Origin: an uncultured virus (IMG/VR IMGVR_UViG_3300031722_000022)
Taxonomy: Duplodnaviria; Heunggongvirae; Uroviricota; Caudoviricetes
Strand: one strand, 5' to 3'
DNA length: 20,000 bases
IMG/VR virus record: IMGVR_UViG_3300031722_000022
In this document: piece by piece, positions 946 through 18,236 of the stretch
Position numbering within the stretch: the stretch's first letter is position 1
Layout: every line of letters begins with the position of its first letter
Position numbers and translations under genes: made by a program
Notes under the pieces: model-generated
Told to the model about the DNA's origin: nothing
Seen by the model: the letters and a program-made list of their open reading frames with translations, nothing else
Database searches by the model: none

Positions 946-1513
946 TGTTTCTCTCCTTCAAGTAGTTGCGGTACGCTGCCACCCTCTTTGCTGCTGTGGA
1001 AAGCATTATACTATCAACTCCAAGTGAAGTCAATGTTTCTTTCTGTTTCTCTGAATTAAGTTTTTTGAATGGCAGAATGTATTTCTTCTCGAACATTGCG
1101 TCTTCAAACGACATTCCCTGCCTCTCAGAATAACTCTTAATTTTATGAGCCTCAACTTCTACGAGTTGCATATTATCATCATTTGTACATAAGTGTCTAG
1201 CAAATGATTCAATGTCACACCAATCTCGCAATGATGCTTCTCCAACAATGTGATCCACTTGCAACTTGCTATTACCAGTCCAAACACCTGTTAAAGCACA
1301 CACAGCACCAGACTTAGCCTTTCCTGTGTAGCCCTCTGGTGGTTTAGTTAAGTGTGACTTCTTGTAGATAATTTTTCCTGGGTATTTTTCCCATATTGCT
1401 CTACGAAGACCTCCACGTAGCCAACTAAAAAAGGATGCCCTAGTGGGCCATACTTCGGGGTAATATTCCCAAGGCTCTATGCTGTTTTTATTCATGTCAA
1501 GTTCCGTGCCCAT
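929..1513 (-). CDS. phage HNH endonuclease (non-AP2 type)
   Basis: WLRGGLRRAIW motif, CALTG, QVDHI, DDNMQLV...HKIKS HNH-like motif; typical of nucleases next to phage exonuclease genes; true start may be the internal Met (MNKNS). Confidence 0.75.
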   Translation of the reverse strand: MGTELDMNKNSIEPWEYYPEVWPTRASFFSWLRGGLRRAIWEKYPGKIIYKKSHLTKPPEGYTGKAKSGAVCALTGVWTGNSKLQVDHIVGEASLRDWCDIESFARHLCTNDDNMQLVEVEAHKIKSYSERQGMSFEDAMFEKKYILPFKKLNSEKQKETLTSLGVDSIMLSTAAKRVAAYRNYLKERNSGNED

Positions 1514-2060
1514 TTATATAACCTGCACCCTGTGCATTCAGTTCCTTAATCATTTCCTCGCGGTACTCACCCGCCAAACGAAAGGATACATCATAACCGA
1601 GTTTGTTAATTGAAAACCTTTTTCTATGTTTGTTACCCATCAAGTCTTGCCATTGAGATACAAAATACTCATAAATTTTTCCATCCCTATTAGTAACTAC
1701 GTCCTTAGAGACTCCAGTAACACCTGTTGAATTTCTTTTATGTTTTGATTTGTTTCTGCCACTAAGATTATTATCGACAAGTCTCAAATTCTCTACTCTA
1801 TTATTTGATTTGTTTCTATCTATGTGGTCAACCAATAAATCATAACATTTTGTTCCGTTTAATACCATTACAACCCTATGAGAACGATATAATTTACCTT
1901 TGAGTGCTACACACCAGTAACCACTCCTTGTCGAACAATAGCCTGCAACCGCTCCGGCCCTCATCCTTTTACTGATATTTACTTTCCATCTCAACCCTCC
2001 CGGAGAATTTTCATCATAGTAAAGGAATTCACCAAAATCAACGTTATATTTTTCTTCCAT
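1497..2060 (-). CDS. HNH homing endonuclease with C-terminal AP2-like DNA-binding domain
   Basis: YRSHRVV, VDHIDRNKSNNRVENLR HNH motif; NSTGVTGV...RKRFSINKLG AP2-like tail; GGGAG RBS. Confidence 0.9.
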   Translation of the reverse strand: MEEKYNVDFGEFLYYDENSPGGLRWKVNISKRMRAGAVAGYCSTRSGYWCVALKGKLYRSHRVVMVLNGTKCYDLLVDHIDRNKSNNRVENLRLVDNNLSGRNKSKHKRNSTGVTGVSKDVVTNRDGKIYEYFVSQWQDLMGNKHRKRFSINKLGYDVSFRLAGEYREEMIKELNAQGAGYINGHGT

Positions 2061-5037: not shown

Positions 5038-5066
5038 ATTATCTCATACTTCAACACTCTTGTCAA
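5038..5066 (-). promoter_or_regulatory. sigma70-type promoter
   Basis: TTGACA-17-GATAAT with extended TG; AGAAATGC immediately upstream of -35. Confidence 0.75.
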
Positions 5067-5745
5067 GCATTTCTTTAGCAATCTTTGTTGTACCGTTGGG
5101 TCTGTCGCCGTATAACTGCTCCGAGCGATTGTCGTAGGCTGTGGCTGCATCAAGCTCATTCAGAAAATAGCCAAGATTTTCCCTTGTCTTATTGTAAGTG
5201 ATTTGTGCACCATACTTACCAAAATCTTTATAATAATAAAATACCATGTGCTTTGAAGAGCAGCCACCACGCTTTCTCTTATTATGCATCTGTATATCCC
5301 ACTCTACCCAACGACAATTTTCTTTGCAATAATTTCCGTTAGTGTCGATACGATCTAGCGAAAGCCCTTCACGATATGTATCTCCCATGTCTGTCCAAAA
5401 GTTTTTAAAAGAATCTTCCCACTCCCGACACATAGTAATGCCTCTTCCACCATAGTCTTTCCATGCAGGATTATCTTTGTTATACACTCGACCTCTAATA
5501 TTTGCCCACGCATTATAAGCACTGTGCTTGTACATTCCATGCTTTGTCCTACTCGGCATGCCTCTATTTAAACACCCACAGGACTTACAACTTCCTGCTA
5601 ATAGACAGTACATGTCGACAATGTGTATATTACCACATTCACACTTGCATATCCACAAAGGTTTATTGCGCCTATTTCTTCCCACATATTCTAAAGCAAC
5701 CAACCTACCAAACACATCTCCGGTAATGTCCTTTATTTCTCGCAT
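5044..5745 (-). CDS. HNH-AP2 homing endonuclease
   Basis: FGRL...CKCECG...SCGC N-terminus, YGGRGITMC, LDRIDTNGNYCKENCRW, LGYF..ELDAATAYD AP2 tail. Confidence 0.9.
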   Translation of the reverse strand: MREIKDITGDVFGRLVALEYVGRNRRNKPLWICKCECGNIHIVDMYCLLAGSCKSCGCLNRGMPSRTKHGMYKHSAYNAWANIRGRVYNKDNPAWKDYGGRGITMCREWEDSFKNFWTDMGDTYREGLSLDRIDTNGNYCKENCRWVEWDIQMHNKRKRGGCSSKHMVFYYYKDFGKYGAQITYNKTRENLGYFLNELDAATAYDNRSEQLYGDRPNGTTKIAKEMLDKSVEV

Positions 5746-6425
5746 AACTCAACAGTCTCCTTTTTATTTTCATTAATGGTGCTTTTACTGTATCTTCTCT
5801 TCCCTTGTTTACCAATAGAAGAATTTATAATATCGGAATATAATTCAAGTATGCTCTGATCTACCGCTACATCATTATATAATTGGATTTTTTCTTGTTC
5901 TTGCAAAATACCCCACATACTCTTCCGCAAAGATTGTGAATCATAATGTGAATATCCTTTTGCGTATAACCAATCTATGATTCTGTTTACCCTCCATGAG
6001 ACAAAGATATTAAAATCCTCATATCCTAATATGAAACATCTTGGTAAAGTTTTATCATAAAAAGATTTGAAATTAAACGGCAGTTTAACATAAACATTAA
6101 CATAATCAAGTCTCTGAGATGTATCATACCAAGCATGAACTAATGCTTCTGTACATGCTAATACAAGTTTCTCATAGTCATTCTTAGTTGCTACTCTCAT
6201 TTGGCTAGTTTTCCATTTAGGCATCTTCCCCACAGGACGCCTCATTTTGGCTAGTTCACATTGTTCTGTTACGGATAGGCCCAAGTATACGCTCCCTTCG
6301 GGATGGAGAAAATATGGGCCTTTGTCAACGAGAGTAGCATTAACAATTTGTTGTGTCCAATTTCCATCTGGTAACTTGTAAGGGAAGCCCTCTGGCGTAG
6401 GAATTTTAATTTCGGAGTGTTTCAT
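5733..6425 (-). CDS. hypothetical protein (230 aa), translationally coupled to DNA polymerase
   Basis: TAATG overlap with the polymerase stop; long ORF with no recognised motif. Confidence 0.8.
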   Translation of the reverse strand: MKHSEIKIPTPEGFPYKLPDGNWTQQIVNATLVDKGPYFLHPEGSVYLGLSVTEQCELAKMRRPVGKMPKWKTSQMRVATKNDYEKLVLACTEALVHAWYDTSQRLDYVNVYVKLPFNFKSFYDKTLPRCFILGYEDFNIFVSWRVNRIIDWLYAKGYSHYDSQSLRKSMWGILQEQEKIQLYNDVAVDQSILELYSDIINSSIGKQGKRRYSKSTINENKKETVELCEK

Positions 6426-8530
6426 TAGTGCACAGCCTTCCAAGAATTTCCTACTTTTCCTTCTCCTGCCAGAGCAACCTTCATCTTAAAATACTCCCCT
6501 GCCTCCTTAATGCTTAGTTCTGCCATGACCTTAACCTCCTCTGCAATTTCTGCATCACATTCAAAGGAATATTCGTCGTGATAATAAATCACTCGCTTAA
6601 CTTCTTTTCCTTTATGCAGATAATATGGCCTTCCAAGATCGTCGATATACATTGTGCCCAACTTTGCATCCATGATACAACAAGCCAAGTCCATAACAAT
6701 TGCACCAAGACTCTGAAGGATATTATTCAGCAAAGAATGCTTAGAGCGTGTTCTAATAAGCCTGCCATCAACTGCTGGCACCCATGTTTTCTTTCCTGCT
6801 GTTTCCCAATACTTGCCAATGTTTTCTACAAGCTGCTTTAGCGCAGGGTTTGCATCCCAAAAAGCTTTGTGTAGGCGCTTCCCTTCCTTCTCTGGCTTTC
6901 CTAGGGTCTTAGCCAACTTAGACGGTGCGCAACCATAGATAACCGCATAGCCTCCAGTCTTTCCTTTCCCACGGAACGGCTTAAACTTCCTGTCTTCCTT
7001 ATCAAAATGTTCTGGTGTAAATCCGAGTCTCAACAATTCTGAAGGAAACCATGCAAAAGCTACCTTGGAGTGCACGTCACCATGCAGCAATTCTTCCGCA
7101 TACGCCCCATTGTCATACTTGAAAGTCATGTGTCCAGCGCAGCGTTGCTCCAGGCCAGATGCATCTGCTGCTGCAATCAACTTTCCTTCTTCAGAACAGA
7201 ACAAATCCCTGAACTCGTCTCCATAAATACTTTGTCCTCCGGCGCGTGGGACATTACACACAACTGCGTGGCATTGTCGATGAGAGTTTGCAATCTTAGA
7301 GGATGCTGTTGGAAGCCTTCCATCAAAAGCAAGTCTAGGGTTTGATAACCAGCCTTGCAGTACGCTCCGTCTATTCCTCAGCGAAAGAAACTTGACAACT
7401 TCCTTTACTGTATCTCCCTCAAGTTCAAGTAGGTTAGGACAAATTACACCTTGTTCTTGCAACTTAGGTGAAGTCTCAATGTAGTTTCCACGATCATCTC
7501 TAAGAGGCTTCCCATCTGGCCCTCGTTGGTAATTCCAAAATGTAGGAACCCACCCTTGTTCCATTAGCCATTCTTTGAACTGCTTCTGGTCGCCAATAAC
7601 CATTGGGAGCTTAATGTCCAAGATCGTCTTACTAACAACTGGATAGTCTTTCCCATAAAACTCAACGATGTTTCCTTCTTTAACTACTCCGCTGTGCTTT
7701 GTAATGAAGTTTTCCATGTGGCTACTAAAAGACCCGTCCAACTTATAAGGTTTCGCCGGCATTGTATAGTTTGCTTGCTCAGTCTTCTTTAATGAACGAG
7801 GAGGAAGTTTTGGAAGAACCTCTACTTCTAGTGCTGCCATATCAGTTTCAAGATTTTGCATCACTTCTTCAGCAAGCGGTCGATTAAAACCATGCCCTGT
7901 GTGTTCTTGGGCCTTCATAAGAAACTGTGACTTTGTTCCCATCTTCAAGCAAGGAGGTTTAACTTCCCCGTACAGTTCCTTCAACTCGCTCATTTGCTTT
8001 AGCATAAGGATACGAGTAGCTTCAACGTCAGCATCGCAATACTCGTCCATTAGTGGATTGTAGAATCCGAACTCGAAGCCCTTACACTCGTCCCCTGTCA
8101 TTACACCAGCATTAATCAAACTCTGTCGATAATCAATCTTCTCTGCGCTTGACCCTCGTGACAAGGCAGCAAGAGAGAACTCAGGGAGATTAGGATTAAG
8201 GAATTGTGCAACATAGAACGAGTCGAAGAAGGATACCAACTTGCTTCCAAAGTAGTCCTTCCCCTTCTTGCCAACAGTCGGCTTAATTCCAAGCAATTTC
8301 CACAGCACAAAGTGATCGTAGGAGAGGCCGTTAAAGGAGCCACACAAAGCCCCATCAGGGAAACTGTCAGCCCAGTCAATAATCTTCTGTTGTGAGGCGT
8401 CTACGCCCTCTCTGAAAGGGTATACGGACATAGCGCGTGTGCCATCAAGTGACTTGAAATTCCCGTACCAAATATCAGTGCAGCCTAGATAGAGGTCATT
8501 TCCCTCAAGGTCGAATACCCATCCTTCCAT
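6425..8530 (-). CDS. family A DNA polymerase (T7-like) with 3'-5' exonuclease domain
   Basis: ExoI FDLEG, ExoII FNGLSYD, ExoIII YCDADV; motif A DASGLEQR, motif B RGKGKTGGYAVIYG, motif C YYHDE; GGAGG RBS. Confidence 0.97.
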   Translation of the reverse strand: MEGWVFDLEGNDLYLGCTDIWYGNFKSLDGTRAMSVYPFREGVDASQQKIIDWADSFPDGALCGSFNGLSYDHFVLWKLLGIKPTVGKKGKDYFGSKLVSFFDSFYVAQFLNPNLPEFSLAALSRGSSAEKIDYRQSLINAGVMTGDECKGFEFGFYNPLMDEYCDADVEATRILMLKQMSELKELYGEVKPPCLKMGTKSQFLMKAQEHTGHGFNRPLAEEVMQNLETDMAALEVEVLPKLPPRSLKKTEQANYTMPAKPYKLDGSFSSHMENFITKHSGVVKEGNIVEFYGKDYPVVSKTILDIKLPMVIGDQKQFKEWLMEQGWVPTFWNYQRGPDGKPLRDDRGNYIETSPKLQEQGVICPNLLELEGDTVKEVVKFLSLRNRRSVLQGWLSNPRLAFDGRLPTASSKIANSHRQCHAVVCNVPRAGGQSIYGDEFRDLFCSEEGKLIAAADASGLEQRCAGHMTFKYDNGAYAEELLHGDVHSKVAFAWFPSELLRLGFTPEHFDKEDRKFKPFRGKGKTGGYAVIYGCAPSKLAKTLGKPEKEGKRLHKAFWDANPALKQLVENIGKYWETAGKKTWVPAVDGRLIRTRSKHSLLNNILQSLGAIVMDLACCIMDAKLGTMYIDDLGRPYYLHKGKEVKRVIYYHDEYSFECDAEIAEEVKVMAELSIKEAGEYFKMKVALAGEGKVGNSWKAVH

Positions 8531-8531
8531 T

Positions 8532-9200
8532 TTAGATTCCTCCTCCTGTTGCTAGTCTAGTTTCCTCAATCTTCTCTTTATAGTATTCTTGCTCTGCTTC
8601 TTTTCTTGCTAATACATCCTCATCAAAGTCAAAGAAGGTTTCTCTAAGGACAGTCTCTCCTTCTTTGTGGAGAGTAGCGACCCATTTACCTTTATATTTA
8701 TCAAAAGATACACCTGTTACACCTGATTTGTTATTTTTAAACAACTCTCTATTAAATGCCTGATTACTTGGTGTGTCCCATTTGCAGTTCTCTGGTGAGT
8801 AGTTTCCGTTTGTGTCTTTACGCTCAAGTGTTCTTCCTTCTGGCCTCTCTCCCATGTCGTCTAAAAAGTTAAAGAATCCAGTTGGAGACAATTCCCACTT
8901 CTCACAGACAACAATTCCTTTTCTAAGGTAATCCCCGCGCTTATCTTCTCCATCACACCGCTGATGCATTGATCTGAAAGACGACCACGTAGGGGTCTGT
9001 GACCAACCATCAAGAACATCACATTCTTTTCTATAACAACCACATGACAGCACATTACCGACTTTTAAGTGAAAGGTATTTTGATACGTAGTGTTTCCAC
9101 AATCGCAAATGCATTCCCATCCTTGCTTATCTTTACGCCAGCCTACAACAACCAATCGTCCATACCTCTCACCAACAAAAACAGTTTGCGGCAATGCCAT
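8532..9200 (-). CDS. HNH-AP2 homing endonuclease
   Basis: YGRL..CICDCG..SCGC, MHQRC, DMGERPEGRTLERKDTNGNYSPENCKW, NNKSGVTGV...ARKEAE; GGAGG RBS. Confidence 0.9.
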   Translation of the reverse strand: MALPQTVFVGERYGRLVVVGWRKDKQGWECICDCGNTTYQNTFHLKVGNVLSCGCYRKECDVLDGWSQTPTWSSFRSMHQRCDGEDKRGDYLRKGIVVCEKWELSPTGFFNFLDDMGERPEGRTLERKDTNGNYSPENCKWDTPSNQAFNRELFKNNKSGVTGVSFDKYKGKWVATLHKEGETVLRETFFDFDEDVLARKEAEQEYYKEKIEETRLATGGGI

Positions 9201-10939: not shown

Positions 10940-10968
10940 ATTCTATCAGGAAGAATGTGTGTTGTCAA
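10940..10968 (-). promoter_or_regulatory. sigma70-type promoter
   Basis: TTGACA-17-TAGAAT with extended TG; AGAAATTGC upstream; the -35 contains the HNH gene's TGA stop. Confidence 0.8.
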
Positions 10969-11645
10969 GCAATTTCTGAATTAATCTTTATTGTTCCGTT
11001 CGGCCTGTCTCCATATAACTCTTCTGAGCGGTTGTCATAGGCTGTTCCTGCATCTAGTTCATTAAAGAAATATCCTAAGTGCTCTCTTTTTCTATTTTGT
11101 TGTATATTGGAAGACCACTTTCCCACTACAATGCTCCAATACACGCCCTTATAAGCAGACGAGCAATTATTTTTCTTCCTTTGGTTATGGCTCTGTTCTG
11201 TATCCGTAGCCCAACGGCAGTTTTCTTTGCAGTAATTTCCATTAACATTAATTCTATCTAAAGTCAAGCCCTCTTCCCATGTTTCTCCCATCTCATCCCA
11301 GAATGTCTTAAAAGACTTTCGCCACTCTCTACACGTTGTAATTCCTCTTCCTCCATAGTTATTCCACTCTTCATTCTTTGGATTTGTTGTTCTCTGGATA
11401 GCTCCGCTCCAAGACGAGTATGCCGAGGATTTACACATCCCGTGTTTTGTCTTCCTCGTATTACCTAAACATCCACAAGATAAAGATTTTCCGCTTGTAA
11501 GGTTTCCTTTATATACAACAACCTCCTTTCCACACTCACACCTACATCTCCATATAGTTCCAGAATAACCCTGCTGATTACCCTCCCTACAAACAATAGT
11601 AAGCAGACCAAAATGCTGGCCTGATATATCTATTAATTTACCCAT
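10965..11645 (-). CDS. HNH-AP2 homing endonuclease
   Basis: CRCECG..SCGC, YGGRGI, LDRINVNGNYCKENCRW, SSAYKGV, LGYF..ELDA..AYDNRSE; start at the TGATG overlap with the primase-helicase stop. Confidence 0.9.
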   Translation of the reverse strand: MGKLIDISGQHFGLLTIVCREGNQQGYSGTIWRCRCECGKEVVVYKGNLTSGKSLSCGCLGNTRKTKHGMCKSSAYSSWSGAIQRTTNPKNEEWNNYGGRGITTCREWRKSFKTFWDEMGETWEEGLTLDRINVNGNYCKENCRWATDTEQSHNQRKKNNCSSAYKGVYWSIVVGKWSSNIQQNRKREHLGYFFNELDAGTAYDNRSEELYGDRPNGTIKINSEIA

Positions 11646-13384
11646 CAGAAATCCCTTGGCCCATGCATTGACATGTACTCTACCTTGTCCCACAAAGTAT
11701 GCGTCGCAGAATCATAATACATTTCACAAGCAAGACCTGTCCACCCAGTTGAACGAGACTTCAATACATGAACACTTGTGGTGTTCTTAATCATCTCGTC
11801 TGGATTATTCTTATCTCGCTGCAAAGCAATGTTTACACCCGCACTACGATATTGTGTTCCTGATCCGATAATGCTTTCTTCTGTCAGGAAAGCCCCTTGC
11901 GAAGCAGCCTTCTCCCCGCTACCAGACTTTCTAACGTGTGAGATATTAATAATAATTACACCATACTGCTTGACTATCTTCTTTTCCCATGCCATCCACT
12001 TATCTACTTCTTCAATTGTCTTCCCTGCAAAAACATCAGACAGCACATCAATACAAATTACCTTGCAGTTGCAGGCGATAATCATCTCTTCGACTTTTTC
12101 TTGCAACTGTGAGTAATCCCCACGATCATCAAGCAGGTATAGGCGGCTTGTTCCATCTTGCCGCTTGAACAAAGTATTAGCAGCATCCTCTGCCTCCTTG
12201 CTGCCCACAAAAGCAATACGTTCTTCTTTGTCCTTAATAAGAGCAATCTTCTTGCCCATATAATGTGATAGCAAGTTCTCACCAAACTCTGCTGCCTCTG
12301 CCTCAAGGGACAGTACCGCAATGTTAAGATCAAGATCAATCATCCAATAAGCAATACACTGGTTGATTGCAGATGTCTTCCCTGATCCACTCCCGGCAAG
12401 AATGTTACAAATATACCCGTAGTTCACTCCGCCTGCCAATGCACGATTAACACCTTCCATCATTGGAGGAAATGGCAACTTGTCTACTTTAGCTCGTTCC
12501 TTAATTTCACTATAGATTTGGTCACTATCTACAATGCCAGACGGCGTCCATTGCTTTGCTTTCCAGAAATCATTGATGAAAGCCTGCTCTTTTCCGTGGT
12601 TGATATATTCATCAGCATCATTAAAAGACATCTTCATAATGAATGACTTGCCTTTAGGCAGAATCTTGCAGATTGCTTCGTTTGCGAGTTGTCCTGCATC
12701 GTCCATGTCCATGCACACAACGATCTTCTTGAATTGTGACAGCCATGAGTATTGCTTCTGTACCTGTTTCCAGGCACCATTTTCTCCGATGGTTGGGGAT
12801 ACGACAGCAATAGACTCGTAGTCTTCTTTGCCCCTGCGCTTCTGATCGTCAACAAGCATTTGATACGCTGCACGTTGCTTAATCTCGCCTCCGACAATTA
12901 GACATGTGTGGTTATTGTTCTTGAAACGGAACTGCCCAACGAGATCACAATCCTTTCCAACTACGCCAACTGGTTGTGAGAAGTCCTTTGGGAAAAGGCG
13001 CGTCTTATAGCCTACAAGTTCTGAGTCGATGGTTGTTGGGACATACTCCTTGATCGGCTCCCCATTTTCTTCATCGTATTGATAGCGAACACCAAAAAAC
13101 TGGTTAATCTCTTTACGAATTCCTCGAAATCCTTTTCCGTCCGTTCCGGTATAGGATTTAATTTTATCATTCTCTTCATCTGTAATACGTTCTCGTGTAG
13201 ACACTTCTTCCTCCTCTTCAACTGTATCAATGCCTCTGGCTTCCCGTTCACTGTCAGAAAGAATGGTGTGAGAACATGCGAAACAATACCCGCCCAAACC
13301 CTCCCCATAGAAGTAGAAGTTATCGCCTTTGTCATCATGTCCTTTTTCCCTACACTTAGGACAAGGATTCTTTCCAATTTTCAA
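11645..13384 (-). CDS. T7 gp4-like DNA primase-helicase
   Basis: Zn finger CPKC..CFAC, TOPRIM DMD and NDAD, Walker A AGSGSGKT, SLE, ISHVRK, GSG, LKSRSTG; TTG start with AAGGAG. Confidence 0.95.
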   Translation of the reverse strand: MKIGKNPCPKCREKGHDDKGDNFYFYGEGLGGYCFACSHTILSDSEREARGIDTVEEEEEVSTRERITDEENDKIKSYTGTDGKGFRGIRKEINQFFGVRYQYDEENGEPIKEYVPTTIDSELVGYKTRLFPKDFSQPVGVVGKDCDLVGQFRFKNNNHTCLIVGGEIKQRAAYQMLVDDQKRRGKEDYESIAVVSPTIGENGAWKQVQKQYSWLSQFKKIVVCMDMDDAGQLANEAICKILPKGKSFIMKMSFNDADEYINHGKEQAFINDFWKAKQWTPSGIVDSDQIYSEIKERAKVDKLPFPPMMEGVNRALAGGVNYGYICNILAGSGSGKTSAINQCIAYWMIDLDLNIAVLSLEAEAAEFGENLLSHYMGKKIALIKDKEERIAFVGSKEAEDAANTLFKRQDGTSRLYLLDDRGDYSQLQEKVEEMIIACNCKVICIDVLSDVFAGKTIEEVDKWMAWEKKIVKQYGVIIINISHVRKSGSGEKAASQGAFLTEESIIGSGTQYRSAGVNIALQRDKNNPDEMIKNTTSVHVLKSRSTGWTGLACEMYYDSATHTLWDKVEYMSMHGPRDF

Positions 13385-13387
13385 TGA

Positions 13388-13840
13388 TTATCTCTCCTTG
13401 TAGAATGAATGTGAACCTAATGTTAGTGTCTTCTTGAACACCCTTGTCCAAGCATTACGTACATGTTTCGTTGCGAAATGTGTAGCCCCTGCTGTGTCAT
13501 CAACATGCCCTTCACTATTATAACTCATAAACATATTATAAGCAACTGGCAGCGAAGCTGCTAACATATCCGCCGTAGGCGTCTTAGCCTTCCCATGCCA
13601 ACTGAACTGATGTCGTTCCGACATAATATAACAAACAGGCTTACGTCTCTTCTTGCTACGGTTCAACACCGTATTAGCTACAGCAATTTGTCCACGCAAA
13701 TGTTCTCCTCTTGACTCAAAATATACGACGGTAGCCAAGCAATATATTTCTTCTGCTTTGCTATTATTAATAACATGGTCATATGTCAAAGAGGGGAACA
13801 TTAACGCTATTATCAGGAATAGCTTAATTGCCAAAGTCAA
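13388..13840 (-). CDS. SleB-like cell wall hydrolase (Hydrolase_2 family)
   Basis: CLATVVYFESRGE, GQIAVANTVLNR, QFSW, GATHF, GSHSFY; hydrophobic N-terminal signal. Confidence 0.9.
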   Translation of the reverse strand: MTLAIKLFLIIALMFPSLTYDHVINNSKAEEIYCLATVVYFESRGEHLRGQIAVANTVLNRSKKRRKPVCYIMSERHQFSWHGKAKTPTADMLAASLPVAYNMFMSYNSEGHVDDTAGATHFATKHVRNAWTRVFKKTLTLGSHSFYKER

Positions 13841-14022
13841 TACTCATCCTCGACCCTGCCATCAAAGATATTGCCATAATAAAGTTTATCTTCCTCTTTA
13901 TCGTATTCCTCGTATTCCATATTATCAATACAACGAGGACACACACCTACATCAACATACTCCTCGTCTAGTTTCTTTTCACAGTATTTACATACTTGGA
14001 TACGTTGTGGCTCTACGATCAT
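13837..14022 (-). CDS. small Zn-finger-like protein (CxxC..CxxC)
   Basis: CKYC and CPRC; GGAGG RBS, TAATG coupling. Confidence 0.7.
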   Translation of the reverse strand: MIVEPQRIQVCKYCEKKLDEEYVDVGVCPRCIDNMEYEEYDKEEDKLYYGNIFDGRVEDEY

Positions 14023-14228
14023 TATTCAGCCTCCGTAACTACCAAAGTAAACTTATTGTAGAACTCAGTAACATCAAGTACATACCATGTAGCATCAGAT
14101 GTTCCAATGCTTGTATAAATTATTACAGGGGACATATCTGATGCACACGTAACATCGTAGGCAAGATTGATGTAGAAGTATTCAAGTCCAGATTCATTAT
14201 TTTTGTAGACATTCTTAATATCATTCAT
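14022..14228 (-). CDS. DUF1653-like small protein
   Basis: VYKN..GLEY...A......VIIY....WYV....EF..KF pattern; AGGAG RBS. Confidence 0.6.
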   Translation of the reverse strand: MNDIKNVYKNNESGLEYFYINLAYDVTCASDMSPVIIYTSIGTSDATWYVLDVTEFYNKFTLVVTEAE

Positions 14229-14262
14229 GTGTAATTCTCCTAGGTAAAATTAAACTTAATAG

Positions 14263-14862
14263 TTATGCAACAAAAGATGGAAACGATACAGTTAGCACAT
14301 ACGGTGCTATTGGCTTGCTCAATACACGTTCTGGCTTCTCTGAATATGTCTTAAGATTCCAGCCAACTTTGATCTTCATACAGCGCTTACTAGATAACTT
14401 GATTATAGCATAGAATCCCCAATAATTGTTGATCTTTGTAAAACAATATCCTGCAACACCTGCGGGCTTATCTTGAATAAACGGATTTCCTTTTGTCTGA
14501 ACACAATCTGTAGGAAGAATGTTTGCAACTACATAGGGAGCCCTCTCAAACCTCTGTCCAGGGTTACGTAGAAGCCAGCCAAGCCTTCCAAAATAATTTT
14601 GAATACAAGGGTAGCCAGAGAGCTTCGTTCGCCAAGCCCAGTGGTCTTCCTGCATCTCCTTCCACGCCATATCGCCAAGAAGGGAGTTATCTACTGTCTG
14701 AAACCATGGTAGCCAACCAGGAAGTCTTGGTTCAATTCCTATTGCGTCCCCATTGTTAATAGGCCCATTTGCATTGGAGTAGAACATTGATAATAGCCAT
14801 GCAAACAGATAGGCTACAACATTAACAATAATATGTAGAGGAAGGATTAATAGCCATTTCAT
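14263..14862 (-). CDS. conserved phage membrane-anchored hypothetical protein
   Basis: N-terminal TM; LPGWLPWFQTVDNSLLGD and WLLRNP motifs resemble a recurring phage hypothetical family (from recollection). Confidence 0.75.
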   Translation of the reverse strand: MKWLLILPLHIIVNVVAYLFAWLLSMFYSNANGPINNGDAIGIEPRLPGWLPWFQTVDNSLLGDMAWKEMQEDHWAWRTKLSGYPCIQNYFGRLGWLLRNPGQRFERAPYVVANILPTDCVQTKGNPFIQDKPAGVAGYCFTKINNYWGFYAIIKLSSKRCMKIKVGWNLKTYSEKPERVLSKPIAPYVLTVSFPSFVA

Positions 14863-15382: not shown

Positions 15383-15412
15383 GTTCATCTCCTTGTTGAT
15401 TAGACAGACACC

Positions 15413-15449
15413 ATCTTACCACAATATTTACAGATGTCAACACATTTCT
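15413..15449 (-). promoter_or_regulatory. leftward early promoter
   Basis: AGAAATGTG-TTGACA-16-TAAGAT with extended TG. Confidence 0.8.
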
Positions 15450-15459
15450 TCAACAATGA

Positions 15460-15495
15460 GAAATAGCCCTCATCCATTGTAGGAGAGGGCTTTGT
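15460..15495. terminator. intrinsic terminator-like hairpin, possibly bidirectional
   Basis: AGCCCTC/GAGGGCT stem plus inner TCC/GGA; followed by ATTTCT on minus and TTGTG on plus. Confidence 0.65.
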
Positions 15496-15529
15496 GTGTG
15501 TTGTTTAATTTTATGTGCGCTTTGTAGCT

Positions 15530-15995
15530 AATGTTGTCTACGCTGAGAGGATGCATACCGTGAGGTATGCTCTAGGATGTGTACACTAGCCCGAAGGGCA
15601 GGTAGTAGACGTATACTAGCGCTGTAAGCGCCTTATACTGTGTTGTATACTTAGTTCTTATATTAGTTCTTTATAACATCAACCCGAGGTTCTTAGCGCA
15701 TTTCTCCCCTTATACGCAGAGAGGCATCAGAGATGCGCCTGTAACGTGTTCAGGGGAGAGGAAGCTATTGACAGAATGCGTTAGCATCAACCGTCGGAAC
15801 ATTAGCATTGGTGTGCTTTGCAAGAACACAACAACATGGGAAGTTTAAAGGGCATCTCTCAAGATGTGCATCCCCTCTTACCGGGCCTTCCCACTACAGT
15901 ATCCTGATTGAACAGGGGGCAACTGATGTTCCAGCACCCGAAATCTCTTTAAGTAGTTTCTCCACCCTTGCCAACATGGTATTTCGATGGCTACG
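15530..15995 (+). ncRNA. candidate large structured non-coding element (ncRNA or structured ssDNA origin)
   Basis: No RBS-supported ORF, higher GC than its flanks, more than 10 stems, many nested; wobbles are G-U on plus and would be A-C on minus. Confidence 0.5.
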
Positions 15996-16046
15996 ACACA
16001 GACGAACAAGTGGTCAAAAATTTCTGTGAAGTCGTGCATCAATTGC

Positions 16047-16075
16047 TTGACACACTAGAGTTAGTGTTATATTCT
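16047..16075 (+). promoter_or_regulatory. rightward sigma70-type promoter
   Basis: TTGACA-17-TATTCT; ACACTA/TAGTGT inverted repeat spanning the end of the -35 and the spacer. Confidence 0.6.
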
Positions 16076-16115
16076 ACAACCAAGAGAATCGCTTCCCTCT
16101 TCAACTCATACATAT

Positions 16116-16144
16116 ATTATATCCTACAATTGTTAAATTGTCAA
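16116..16144 (-). promoter_or_regulatory. perfect consensus leftward promoter reading into the non-coding region
   Basis: TTGACA-17-TATAAT exact consensus. Confidence 0.85.
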
Positions 16145-16178
16145 CACCAACACATAAATAAATTAACACAAAGAATGT

Positions 16179-16216
16179 AGAAATGTGTTGACAATATGAA
16201 GAGTGTGCTATAGAAT
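16179..16216 (+). promoter_or_regulatory. rightward early promoter
   Basis: AGAAATGTG-TTGACA-17-TAGAAT. Confidence 0.8.
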
Positions 16217-16244
16217 TGCTACATACATCAACAAGGAGACTATT

Positions 16245-17556: not shown

Positions 17557-18236
17557 ATGCGGGGCAAATTTATAAACTTAGTTGACCAGAGGTTTGGAAG
17601 ACTCTTGGTCACATCAAGAGGAAGTAACAAAAACGGGAAAGTAATGTGGAAGTGTTTGTGTGATTGTGGGGAAGAAGTCGCTGTTGTTAGCCAAGACATC
17701 CGTGAGGGTATTACTAAATCTTGTGGCTGTCTACAAAGAGACACTATTGCAGGAAGGAATACAACACATGGGATGACTAATCATCCATTATACTTTGTAT
17801 GGCCTGACATGAAGAAGCGTATATTTAATGAAGATTGTCCATCATACAAGCACTACGGTGGAAGAGGTATTAAGATTTGTGATAGATGGTTATCTATTGA
17901 AAACTTTATTGAAGATATGTATCCGTCTTATCAAGAAGGACTGTCTATACACCGAATAGATAACAATGGTGACTACACACCAGAAAACTGCAAGTGGGGG
18001 ACTGATAGTATACAATCTCACGTTCAAAGAAAGCAGTCCAATTGCTCGTCTGAGTATATTGGTGTTTGCTTCCACAGTCGAGAGCAAAAATTTATGGCGC
18101 AGATTTGTATTAATTCAAAGAACACGATCCTGGCCACTTTTTAGACGAGCATGAAGCTGCTGTTGCATATGACAATGCGTCTGAAAAGCATTTCGGTGAT
18201 CGCCCCAATAGCACCAAAGGAGTAGAGAATGCCTAA
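17557..18236 (+). pseudogene. HNH-AP2 homing endonuclease with -1 frameshift in the AP2 domain
   Basis: Frame stops at 18144, but the -1 frame from ~18132 reads GHFLDEHEAAVAYDNASEKHFGDRPNSTK, matching the paralog tails; DRID motif is HRID. Confidence 0.8.

What the first reader, a model, noticed from the sequence alone, without database searches (positions are those of the whole stretch)
15460..16144. Perfect consensus promoter drives a ~650 nt non-coding leftward transcript antisense to the folded strand
Seen: the only exact TTGACA-17-TATAAT I found (16116-16144, minus) points into the gene-free region, and a terminator-like hairpin lies at 15460-15495. The predicted RNA begins with a hairpin whose G-U pairs work on minus (AAGAGGG/TTCTCTT, 16082-16101), but its body is the complement of the plus-strand fold. 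Inference: it could be a primer/R-loop RNA for replication initiation (as at T4 or ColE1-type origins), or an antisense regulator of the structured plus-strand molecule.
Basis: partly seen in the sequence, partly recalled or inferred. Interest (0 to 1): 0.7.

Follow-up and report, generated by a model that had tools for sequence, protein, structure and literature searches.

The report
Folded phage RNA, candidate replication primer
An uncultured phage has, where its two early gene blocks diverge, a strong promoter and terminator around a roughly 650-base non-coding RNA whose fold recurs in a few related phages and matches no catalogued RNA family; it may prime DNA replication, but that role is unproven.

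Summary
The promoter (16144-16116, minus), 5' hairpin and terminator hairpin are real. The stretch between them is non-coding. With a sister phage, the consensus fold scores z -6.6 on minus and -2.0 on plus, and the A-U/G-U exchanges fit minus only. Four other phage lineages have a comparable unit at the strand switch upstream of the primase-helicase: sigma-70 promoter, a 350-430-nt folded core with shared motifs, a long hairpin (G-tract in four of five), an AT-rich tract, then a terminator. One has an HNH gene looped out by an 8-bp helix. Rfam and isolated phages give no match. Most likely mechanism (about 0.4): a transcription-primed origin that works like T4 oriF or ColE1 RNA II, with a folded pre-primer hybridising at the AT-rich tract. 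Close rival (0.33): a stand-alone trans-acting early RNA. Against the origin: four-fold-site skew does not flip here, a sister phage lacks the core, one member faces the other way, and the unit ends in a terminator. Transcription itself was not shown.

The parts
16116..16144 (-). Sigma-70 promoter TTGACA-17-TATAAT; start site inferred near A16109
   Evidence: promoter at the equivalent place in G001, G011, G022, L298
16082..16099 (-). 5' hairpin GAGGGAA-GCGA-UUCUCUU (GNRA loop)
   Evidence: two A-U/G-U exchanges versus G001 that pair only on minus
16066..16080 (-). Second hairpin, 6 bp
   Evidence: one double change and two one-sided changes versus G001
15932..16034 (-). Conserved core module: helix - YYRUA - helix with GAAA loop (15987-15981) - AAGG - GAG - UUUCG (15943-15939)
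   Evidence: top non-training hit of model R3 built without the window (17.6 bits, E 0.035)
15836..15894 (-). Nested helix domain (GUGGGAAG/CUUCCCAU) with UAAA bulge
   Evidence: several double changes versus G001
15810..15835 (-). Hairpin with CUUGCAAAG loop, identical in G001
15794..15798 (-). UCCGA, alternative partner of the UUUCGG segment
   Evidence: weak: not the best-scoring partner in the window; 8 bp in G001
15695..15766 (-). Long hairpin holding the G-tract (GGGG at 15709-15706)
   Evidence: z -5.5 with G001; GGG-TA(A)-GGGG in G001, G011, L298
15631..15680 (.). AT-rich tract (74% AT) with TATAAAGAACTA and TAAGTATAC; candidate unwinding element
   Evidence: most AT-rich 50-mer lies 350-430 nt from the start in all five members; motif shared with G011 and L298
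15535..15632 (.). Variable 3' hairpin cluster closed by a GUCUAC/GUAGAC helix; in G001 an HNH gene lies here
   Evidence: compensatory change 15590/15598 in a run X1 contig
15459..15491 (-). Intrinsic-terminator-like hairpin with AUUUCU tail
   Evidence: sequence; same type recurs in G008 and G001; terminator at the unit's end in G001, G022, L298
15413..15440 (-). Next promoter (TTGACA-16-TAAGAT, extended -10) that restarts leftward transcription behind the terminator
   Evidence: same arrangement in G022 and L298
16047..16075 (+). Convergent promoter (10/12); its transcript would overlap the first 28 nt or so of the RNA (the 5' hairpin)
   Evidence: a -35/-10 pair is kept in G001; none listed inside G011; none seen by eye in G022 or L298; 16018-16079 is replaced in run X1
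16188..16216 (+). Divergent promoter of the rightward early genes

Best explanation
Host RNA polymerase makes a roughly 650-nt non-coding RNA from the 16144 promoter (inferred; transcription not shown). The RNA folds into a multi-domain structure (supported by covariation with relatives). The unit most likely acts as a transcription-primed replication origin (inferred). The folded 5' 430 nt, with a segment that can pair either upstream or downstream, would set whether the nascent RNA stays hybridised at the G-tract/AT-rich tract (15710-15630). That R-loop, cut by an RNase H or exonuclease, would give the 3' end for the phage's family A polymerase and an opening for its primase-helicase. Transcripts that do not hybridise end at the 15491-15459 terminator. 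It would work like T4 oriF (promoter plus AT-rich element) and ColE1 RNA II (long folded pre-primer), without being related to either in sequence.
For: Shown. The same order (promoter, folded core, long hairpin, AT-rich tract) occurs in five lineages at the strand switch 1-5 kb upstream of the primase-helicase. The AT-richest 50-mer (74-84% AT) lies 350-430 nt from the start in 5 of 5, and a G-tract precedes it in 4 of 5. Isolates DC31 and P26059A have no detectable core but carry AT-rich AAGTATAAC/AAGTTACAAC-type repeats at the same switch, DC31 behind a promoter and G-runs. L297 lacks the core but keeps the promoter and G-runs. UUUCG can pair with the upstream GAAA loop or with a downstream CCGA/CCGG/CGAG-type segment in 5 of 5. 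A convergent promoter overlaps the 5' hairpin in 2 of 5. The window encodes primase-helicase, family A polymerase and an exonuclease. From papers (passages): T4 oriF/oriG are a promoter plus an A+T-rich unwinding element, and oriE/F/G lie near transcription strand switches (PMC3016281). ColE1 RNA II starts 550 bp upstream of its origin and its fold controls hybrid formation (PMC5043065).
Against: Four-fold-site GC skew does not change sign at the element in G001 (-0.10/+0.03 left, -0.09/-0.04 right) or G011 (0.09/0.13 left, 0.04 right); raw skew follows the coding strand. The core is missing from sister L297 (primase region 90% identical to L298) and was not detected in most relatives searched. 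G011 faces away from the primase while the other four face towards it. The G-tract is a single G4 in the window, is paired in a hairpin, and is absent before the AT tract in G022. Each downstream alternative helix is matched by 24-30% of shuffles in 4 of 5 members. The AT-motif count was built from these sequences and did not single out the element in G001 or G022. The HNH-looping helix lies downstream of the AT tract, which suggests the full-length RNA matters. Separate hairpin-cluster regions elsewhere in the genome are also origin candidates. No transcript or R-loop data.
Confidence: 0.4

Rival explanations
1. A stand-alone, abundant early phage RNA that acts in trans: a folded decoy or scaffold that binds a host or phage protein (for example a defence or RNA-processing factor). 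It is carried as an exchangeable cassette among accessory early genes.
For: Own promoter, own terminator and a fresh promoter behind it in the window, G022 and L298. Patchy presence, with sister L297 lacking it and a run X5 contig jumping from 15619 to 16156. Orientation flips in G011. An 8-bp helix loops out the 219-aa HNH gene in G001. Conserved loops (CUUGCAAAG, GAAAU(U)ACC). The relative PAK_P3 makes abundant small RNAs, one of them upstream of its primase/helicase (PMC10914365 passages).
Against: Does not by itself explain the AT-rich tract at a fixed distance or the fixed position at the strand switch. No partner protein gene travels with it: the flanking genes differ.
Confidence: 0.33
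2. A relic or variant of a self-splicing or other catalytic RNA (group I-like topology) that attracts HNH endonucleases.
For: An HNH gene sits inside the unit in G001 and follows the core-less version in L297. By eye, the helix order loosely resembles P3-P4-P6-P8.
Against: No Rfam match at E up to 1 in the window, and nothing near a gathering score at E up to 10 for three members. The P7-like pairing is no better than shuffles (null 0.28-0.82) and its sequence is not conserved. No interrupted host gene. Similar endonuclease-like genes are scattered through this genome.
Confidence: 0.1
3. A long regulatory leader or antiterminator for the leftward replication genes, or the mRNA of a small protein.
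For: Four of five members face the primase-helicase; alternative pairings exist; short ORFs of 24-54 codons lie on minus.
Against: A new promoter follows the terminator. G011 faces other genes. The switch segments lie 300-450 nt from the terminator and do not overlap it. No coding signature and no ribosome-binding site.
Confidence: 0.1
4. One reading: an antisense regulator of a structured plus-strand RNA or single-stranded DNA.
For: The plus strand folds as well as minus as a single sequence. Some 3' hairpins have GAA/GTA loops on plus.
Against: Consensus fold -77 (minus) versus -42 kcal/mol (plus); 17 versus 1 one-sided pair changes. The G011/L298 pair shows the same direction, more weakly. 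No strong plus-strand promoter for the body.
Confidence: 0.04

Closest known systems
ColE1 RNA II / RNA I primer system (PMC5043065 and PMC6380287, passages read)
   Same: Host-polymerase promoter several hundred bases upstream of the presumed priming site; long folded non-coding RNA; a convergent promoter over the 5' end in 2 of 5 members; family A polymerase available.
   Different: No sequence match (Rfam). The antisense overlap is about 28 nt rather than about 110, has no terminator of its own seen, and is not seen in 3 of 5 members. It has an AT-rich tract, which ColE1 does not need. Lytic phage with its own primase-helicase. Priming not shown.
T4 oriF(uvsY)/oriG R-loop origins (PMC3016281, passages read)
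   Same: Promoter followed by an A+T-rich tract, near a switch of transcribed strand.
   Different: T4 minimal origins are about 100 bp, use MotA middle promoters and need no specific RNA sequence. Here the promoter is sigma-70 type, and 350-430 nt of conserved folded RNA separate promoter and AT tract.
Small non-coding RNAs of Pseudomonas phage PAK_P3 (PMC10914365, passages read)
   Same: Phage with a related primase-helicase and SSB-like protein; a 162-nt RNA is reported upstream of its primase/helicase gene.
   Different: Those RNAs are 120-210 nt and derive from untranslated regions; no sequence similarity in the phage collection.
Large ornate bacterial/phage RNAs such as ROOL, GOLLD and HEARO (names recalled; no paper read on them)
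   Same: Several hundred bases, multi-domain fold; an HNH-type ORF embedded in one member, as recalled for HEARO.
   Different: No Rfam 15 model matches. No tRNA in the window. The embedded HNH is the common phrog_374 type and is present in only 1 of 5.

Membership tests
ColE1-type RNA II primer origin | Sequence/structure match to RNA I or RNA II | tested here: not met
   No Rfam match at E up to 1; only far-below-threshold unrelated hits at E up to 10
ColE1-type RNA II primer origin | Promoter about 550 bp upstream of the priming site with a folded non-coding RNA between | tested here: inconclusive
   Folded non-coding RNA supported; priming site unknown; AT tract at +430 to +480
ColE1-type RNA II primer origin | Discrete antisense RNA of about 110 nt over the 5' end | tested here: not met
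   Convergent promoter overlaps about 28 nt, in 2 of 5 members
ColE1-type RNA II primer origin | Persistent RNA-DNA hybrid processed by RNase H to a primer | not testable with these tools
   Needs experiment
T4 oriF/oriG-type R-loop origin | Promoter plus downstream A+T-rich unwinding element | tested here: met
   Sequence level only: 74-84% AT 50-mer downstream of the promoter in 5 of 5
T4 oriF/oriG-type R-loop origin | MotA-dependent middle promoter | tested here: not met
   The promoter has a consensus sigma-70 -35 hexamer
T4 oriF/oriG-type R-loop origin | Drives autonomous plasmid replication in infected cells | not testable with these tools
   Needs an isolate and host
Group I intron | Conserved P7 guanosine-binding core and match to the Rfam model | tested here: not met
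   P7-like helix not above shuffles
Group I intron | Interrupts a gene, with exons on both sides | tested here: not met
   The unit lies between its own promoter and terminator in a gene-free gap
tRNA/tmRNA | ARAGORN-detectable cloverleaf or tmRNA ends | tested here: not met
   0 genes
Any Rfam 15 family (including ROOL, GOLLD, HEARO, RNase P, 6S if present in the library) | Score at the family gathering threshold | tested here: not met
   Window, G022, G011

The most novel reading that the evidence does not exclude
A lytic tailed phage starts replication with a long, conformationally switchable pre-primer RNA: a ColE1-like, RNA-fold-controlled origin that arose independently in phages. Its UUUCG segment toggles between an upstream loop and a downstream partner, and a short convergent transcript over the 5' hairpin tunes it.
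Probability: 0.2. Interest if true: 0.85.

Novelty: new variant of a known kind. Interest (0 to 1): 0.6.

Why it matters
Origins of 80-90-kb phages with a T7-like replisome but a host-transcribed early region are, to my recall, not mapped; I found no description in my searches. This unit gives a defined, cloneable candidate with a clear test. If the folded core controls priming, RNA-fold-controlled initiation would extend from plasmids to lytic phages. If it acts in trans, it is an uncatalogued family of large phage RNAs with a conserved core, useful for studying host takeover or counter-defence.

Tried and rejected
Searches with no match. Rfam: none at E up to 1; only far-below-threshold hits for three members. 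Isolated-phage collection, distant blastn with the window, G011, G022 and L298 elements: only 28-43-nt hits.

Pattern scans. IMG/VR (7, 30 and 4 hits) returned only the window's twin record and G001; the rest showed no homology. The metagenome scan gave 2 hits, the own contig and a chance match. The GTDB scan gave 4 hits with no nhmmer match to the window/G001 profile or the G011 element. The leader GAGTKGAAG behind the -10 box first looked diagnostic (3 of 45 records), but it has 90 hits in IMG/VR, mostly unrelated promoters, so it was rejected as evidence of homology.

Covariance models. R1 matched 2 of 22 records (both training) and 0 of 42. R1 and R2 on 30 held sources found only the training pair plus one E 0.99 hit. 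R3 matched 0 of 87 loci and 1 of 50 records, the training one. With filters off it ranked the window first among non-training hits, gave G022 only E 1.7, and did not list G001. R2 was not run on whole records.

Expression. 21 runs were listed and 4 were laid, all contigs. The best contig continues about 2.2 kb into unlike sequence, and two runs are flagged as probably DNA. The one run on record as RNA has three short low-depth pieces. This is no evidence of transcription, strand or ends.

Other tests. The 5' half alone (15780-16109) folds no better than shuffles as a single sequence (z +0.2 minus, +0.1 plus); its support is comparative only. In run X1 the GUCUAC/GUAGAC helix gains one pair and loses one, and several other X1 changes break pairs of the single-sequence model. 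GC skew was rejected as origin evidence. No long complementary target was found in the own contig. A group II intron start (GTGCG at 15515, plus) was dropped because it is changed in X1.

Full report
Setting. The window is the reverse complement of part of a 40,133-bp virus record estimated 45% complete. It encodes a primase-helicase, a DNA polymerase, an exonuclease and HNH endonucleases. Its tail tube protein is closest to Limnohabitans phage DC31 (39%) and Curvibacter phage P26059A (37%) among isolates. Genes run leftward up to about 15,400 and rightward from about 16,245, so the finding lies in the gap where the two blocks diverge.

Observation. The exact promoter at 16144-16116 is real and is the only 12/12 site of 61 listed, against 0.009 expected. 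It is one of several such promoters in this phage: 2 in the contig and 3 in 20 kb of record G008, whose capsid protein is 100% identical. A perfect match therefore marks a strong host-polymerase promoter, not something singular. The terminator-like stem at 15465-15491 was not listed by the scan, but the same stem type with the tail GGGCTATTTC recurs at other sites in G008 and G001. A second leftward promoter follows at 15440. The stretch is non-coding by comparison with G001: frameshifting gaps, even codon-position changes, and excess non-synonymous change in all six frames.

Which strand folds. Single-sequence folds do not decide this (z -3.4 minus, -3.5 plus). Sister phage G001 (primase 96%, capsid 85% identical) carries a homologue that begins at its own TTGACT-17-TATAAT. 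It is 69% identical over 16121-15812 by blastn, with 260 of 445 alignment columns identical, while the neighbouring small genes do not align. The consensus fold is -77 kcal/mol on minus (z -6.6; 92 pairs, 20 with both sides changed, 17 with one) and -42 on plus (z -2.0; 58 pairs, 1 one-sided change). The strand difference of -35 compares with -9 +/- 6 in 60 column shuffles. The double-change count alone (20) is only just above the shuffle maximum (18), and two sequences are thin support. The 5' core and the G-tract hairpin each reach z below -5 on minus (0 of 50 shuffles). The 5' hairpin keeps a GCGA loop through two A-U/G-U exchanges that pair only on minus. So the promoter's own transcript is the folded molecule.

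The family. I looked at the strand switch upstream of the primase-helicase in relatives found with capsid and primase queries. Three more lineages have a comparable unit: G011 (L163 16017-16520, with a second record of the same sequence, L299), G022 (L279 about 11270-11800) and L298 (5115-5625). G011 and L298 align along their length and also fold better in the promoter's sense (core z -3.8 versus -2.0). All five share a module: helix, YYRUA, helix with a GAAA-like loop, then GAG and UUUCG. A descriptor written from these five finds only them in 2.85 Mb of partly redundant loci, and 1 hit in 8.5 Mb of shuffles; this is partly circular. A less circular test is model R3, built from G011 and L298 only. 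It ranks window 15932-16034 (minus) first among non-training hits in 90 kb (17.6 bits, E 0.035, rough), G022 at E 1.7, and misses G001. Homology of the window to the G011 group is therefore likely but remote. Downstream of the core, each member has a long helix region (with GGG-TA(A)-GGGG in three, GGGG in the window, and no G-tract there in G022) and then its AT-richest 50 bases. A terminator and a new promoter follow in the window, G022 and L298. In G011 a promoter comes before the terminator-like hairpin. In G001 a phrog_374 HNH gene sits between the AT tract and the terminator, flanked by TTGTCTAC and GTAGACAA, which can pair and loop it out. The unit is patchy. L297, whose primase region is 90% identical to L298 and which shares 88 bp of the promoter region at 94%, lacks the core. 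A contig in run X5 jumps from 15619 to 16156. Models found it in no other record searched, many of which are fragments. In run X1 a relative keeps 15432-16017 with 35 differences and 6 gaps while the flanking genes align only in short pieces.

Mechanism. Shown: a promoter-bounded non-coding unit with conserved minus-strand structure, a downstream AT-rich tract and a fixed genomic position. Inferred: transcription and function. I favour a transcription-primed origin (0.4). The promoter-plus-AT-tract layout near a strand switch is what defines T4 oriF/oriG (PMC3016281, passages), and a long folded pre-primer is the ColE1 solution (PMC5043065, passages). Related AT-rich repeats persist at the same switch in DC31 and P26059A, where no core is detected. 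The UUUCG segment has two mutually exclusive partners in all five members. That recalls the alternative pairings of RNA II (recalled, not read here), but the downstream helix is individually weak. Against the origin: four-fold-site skew shows no flip, raw skew tracks the coding strand, G011 is inverted, a sister lacks the core, and other hairpin-rich intergenic regions conserved at 73% between G008 and G001 are competing origin candidates. A trans-acting early RNA is nearly as likely (0.33): the cassette-like layout, patchiness, inversion and the helix that loops out the HNH gene all fit it. A ribozyme relic (0.1), a leader or small-protein mRNA (0.1) and the antisense reading (0.04) fit less well.

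Expression data. Of 21 runs holding part of the stretch, 4 were laid. All are contigs and show related phages, not transcripts with ends or strand. Transcription remains unshown.

Known or new. No Rfam family, no tRNA or tmRNA, and no isolated phage matches. Seven literature searches (listings and abstract starts only) showed no description of such an RNA in this phage group. Passages of the P26059A paper (PMC5964084) do not mention promoters, non-coding or intergenic regions. I read passages only, of PMC10914365, PMC5043065, PMC6380287, PMC5964084 and PMC3016281; no supplements were opened, and the library lacks most subscription journals. It works, most likely, like an R-loop primer origin but fails membership of the ColE1 and T4 types on sequence, antisense RNA and promoter class. 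Verdict: a real, uncatalogued large phage RNA family with a testable but unproven origin role; interest 0.6.

Noticed in passing
G008 C1 about 2200-2760 and 13650-14350 (L086); G001 L061 7690-8400: Gene-free regions made of many short hairpins (GCCGCTAAGCGGC, GCGAAGC, GCGCTTACAGCGC), conserved at about 71-73% between the two phages; one motif also occurs at window 15617-15635. Candidate origins or genome-end elements.
   Followed up: partly
window 15435-15452 / 16176-16193 and 15388-15400 / 16227-16239: The two outward-facing promoter and ribosome-site cassettes are inverted repeats (18 nt at 94%, 13 nt at 100%) that flank the unit and could allow it to invert.
   Followed up: no
IMG/VR, loci L188-L277: GAGTTGAAG/GAGTGGAAG occurs just behind sigma-70-type -10 boxes in 90 stretches from unrelated phages, more than my rough expectation; possibly a favoured initially transcribed sequence. 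No shuffled control was run.
   Followed up: partly
L348 5148-5500: Another promoter-led gap of about 350 nt at a strand switch upstream of a primase in a more distant phage, with no match to this family; possibly a different structured RNA.
   Followed up: no
L084 21372-21891 (P26059A) and L085 35153-35419 (DC31): AT-rich repeats (AAGTTACAAC, AAGTATAAC) at the strand switch upstream of the primase in two cultured phages; these are directly testable origin candidates.
   Followed up: partly
window 1497-2060, 5044-5745, 8532-9200, 10965-11693, 17557-18144: Five free-standing endonuclease-like ORFs. 17557-18144 is phrog_374 HNH; 5044-5745 and 10965-11693 are similar to each other and to the G001 HNH gene; the other two are judged by eye only.
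   Followed up: partly
window 5733-6443 (minus): 236-aa protein directly behind the DNA polymerase gene, with no PHROG or Pfam match, conserved in G001 (74% DNA identity).
   Followed up: no
L297 4813-5934: Core-less sister allele: shared promoter region, G-runs, a short AT stretch, then a phrog_953 HNH gene.
   Followed up: partly
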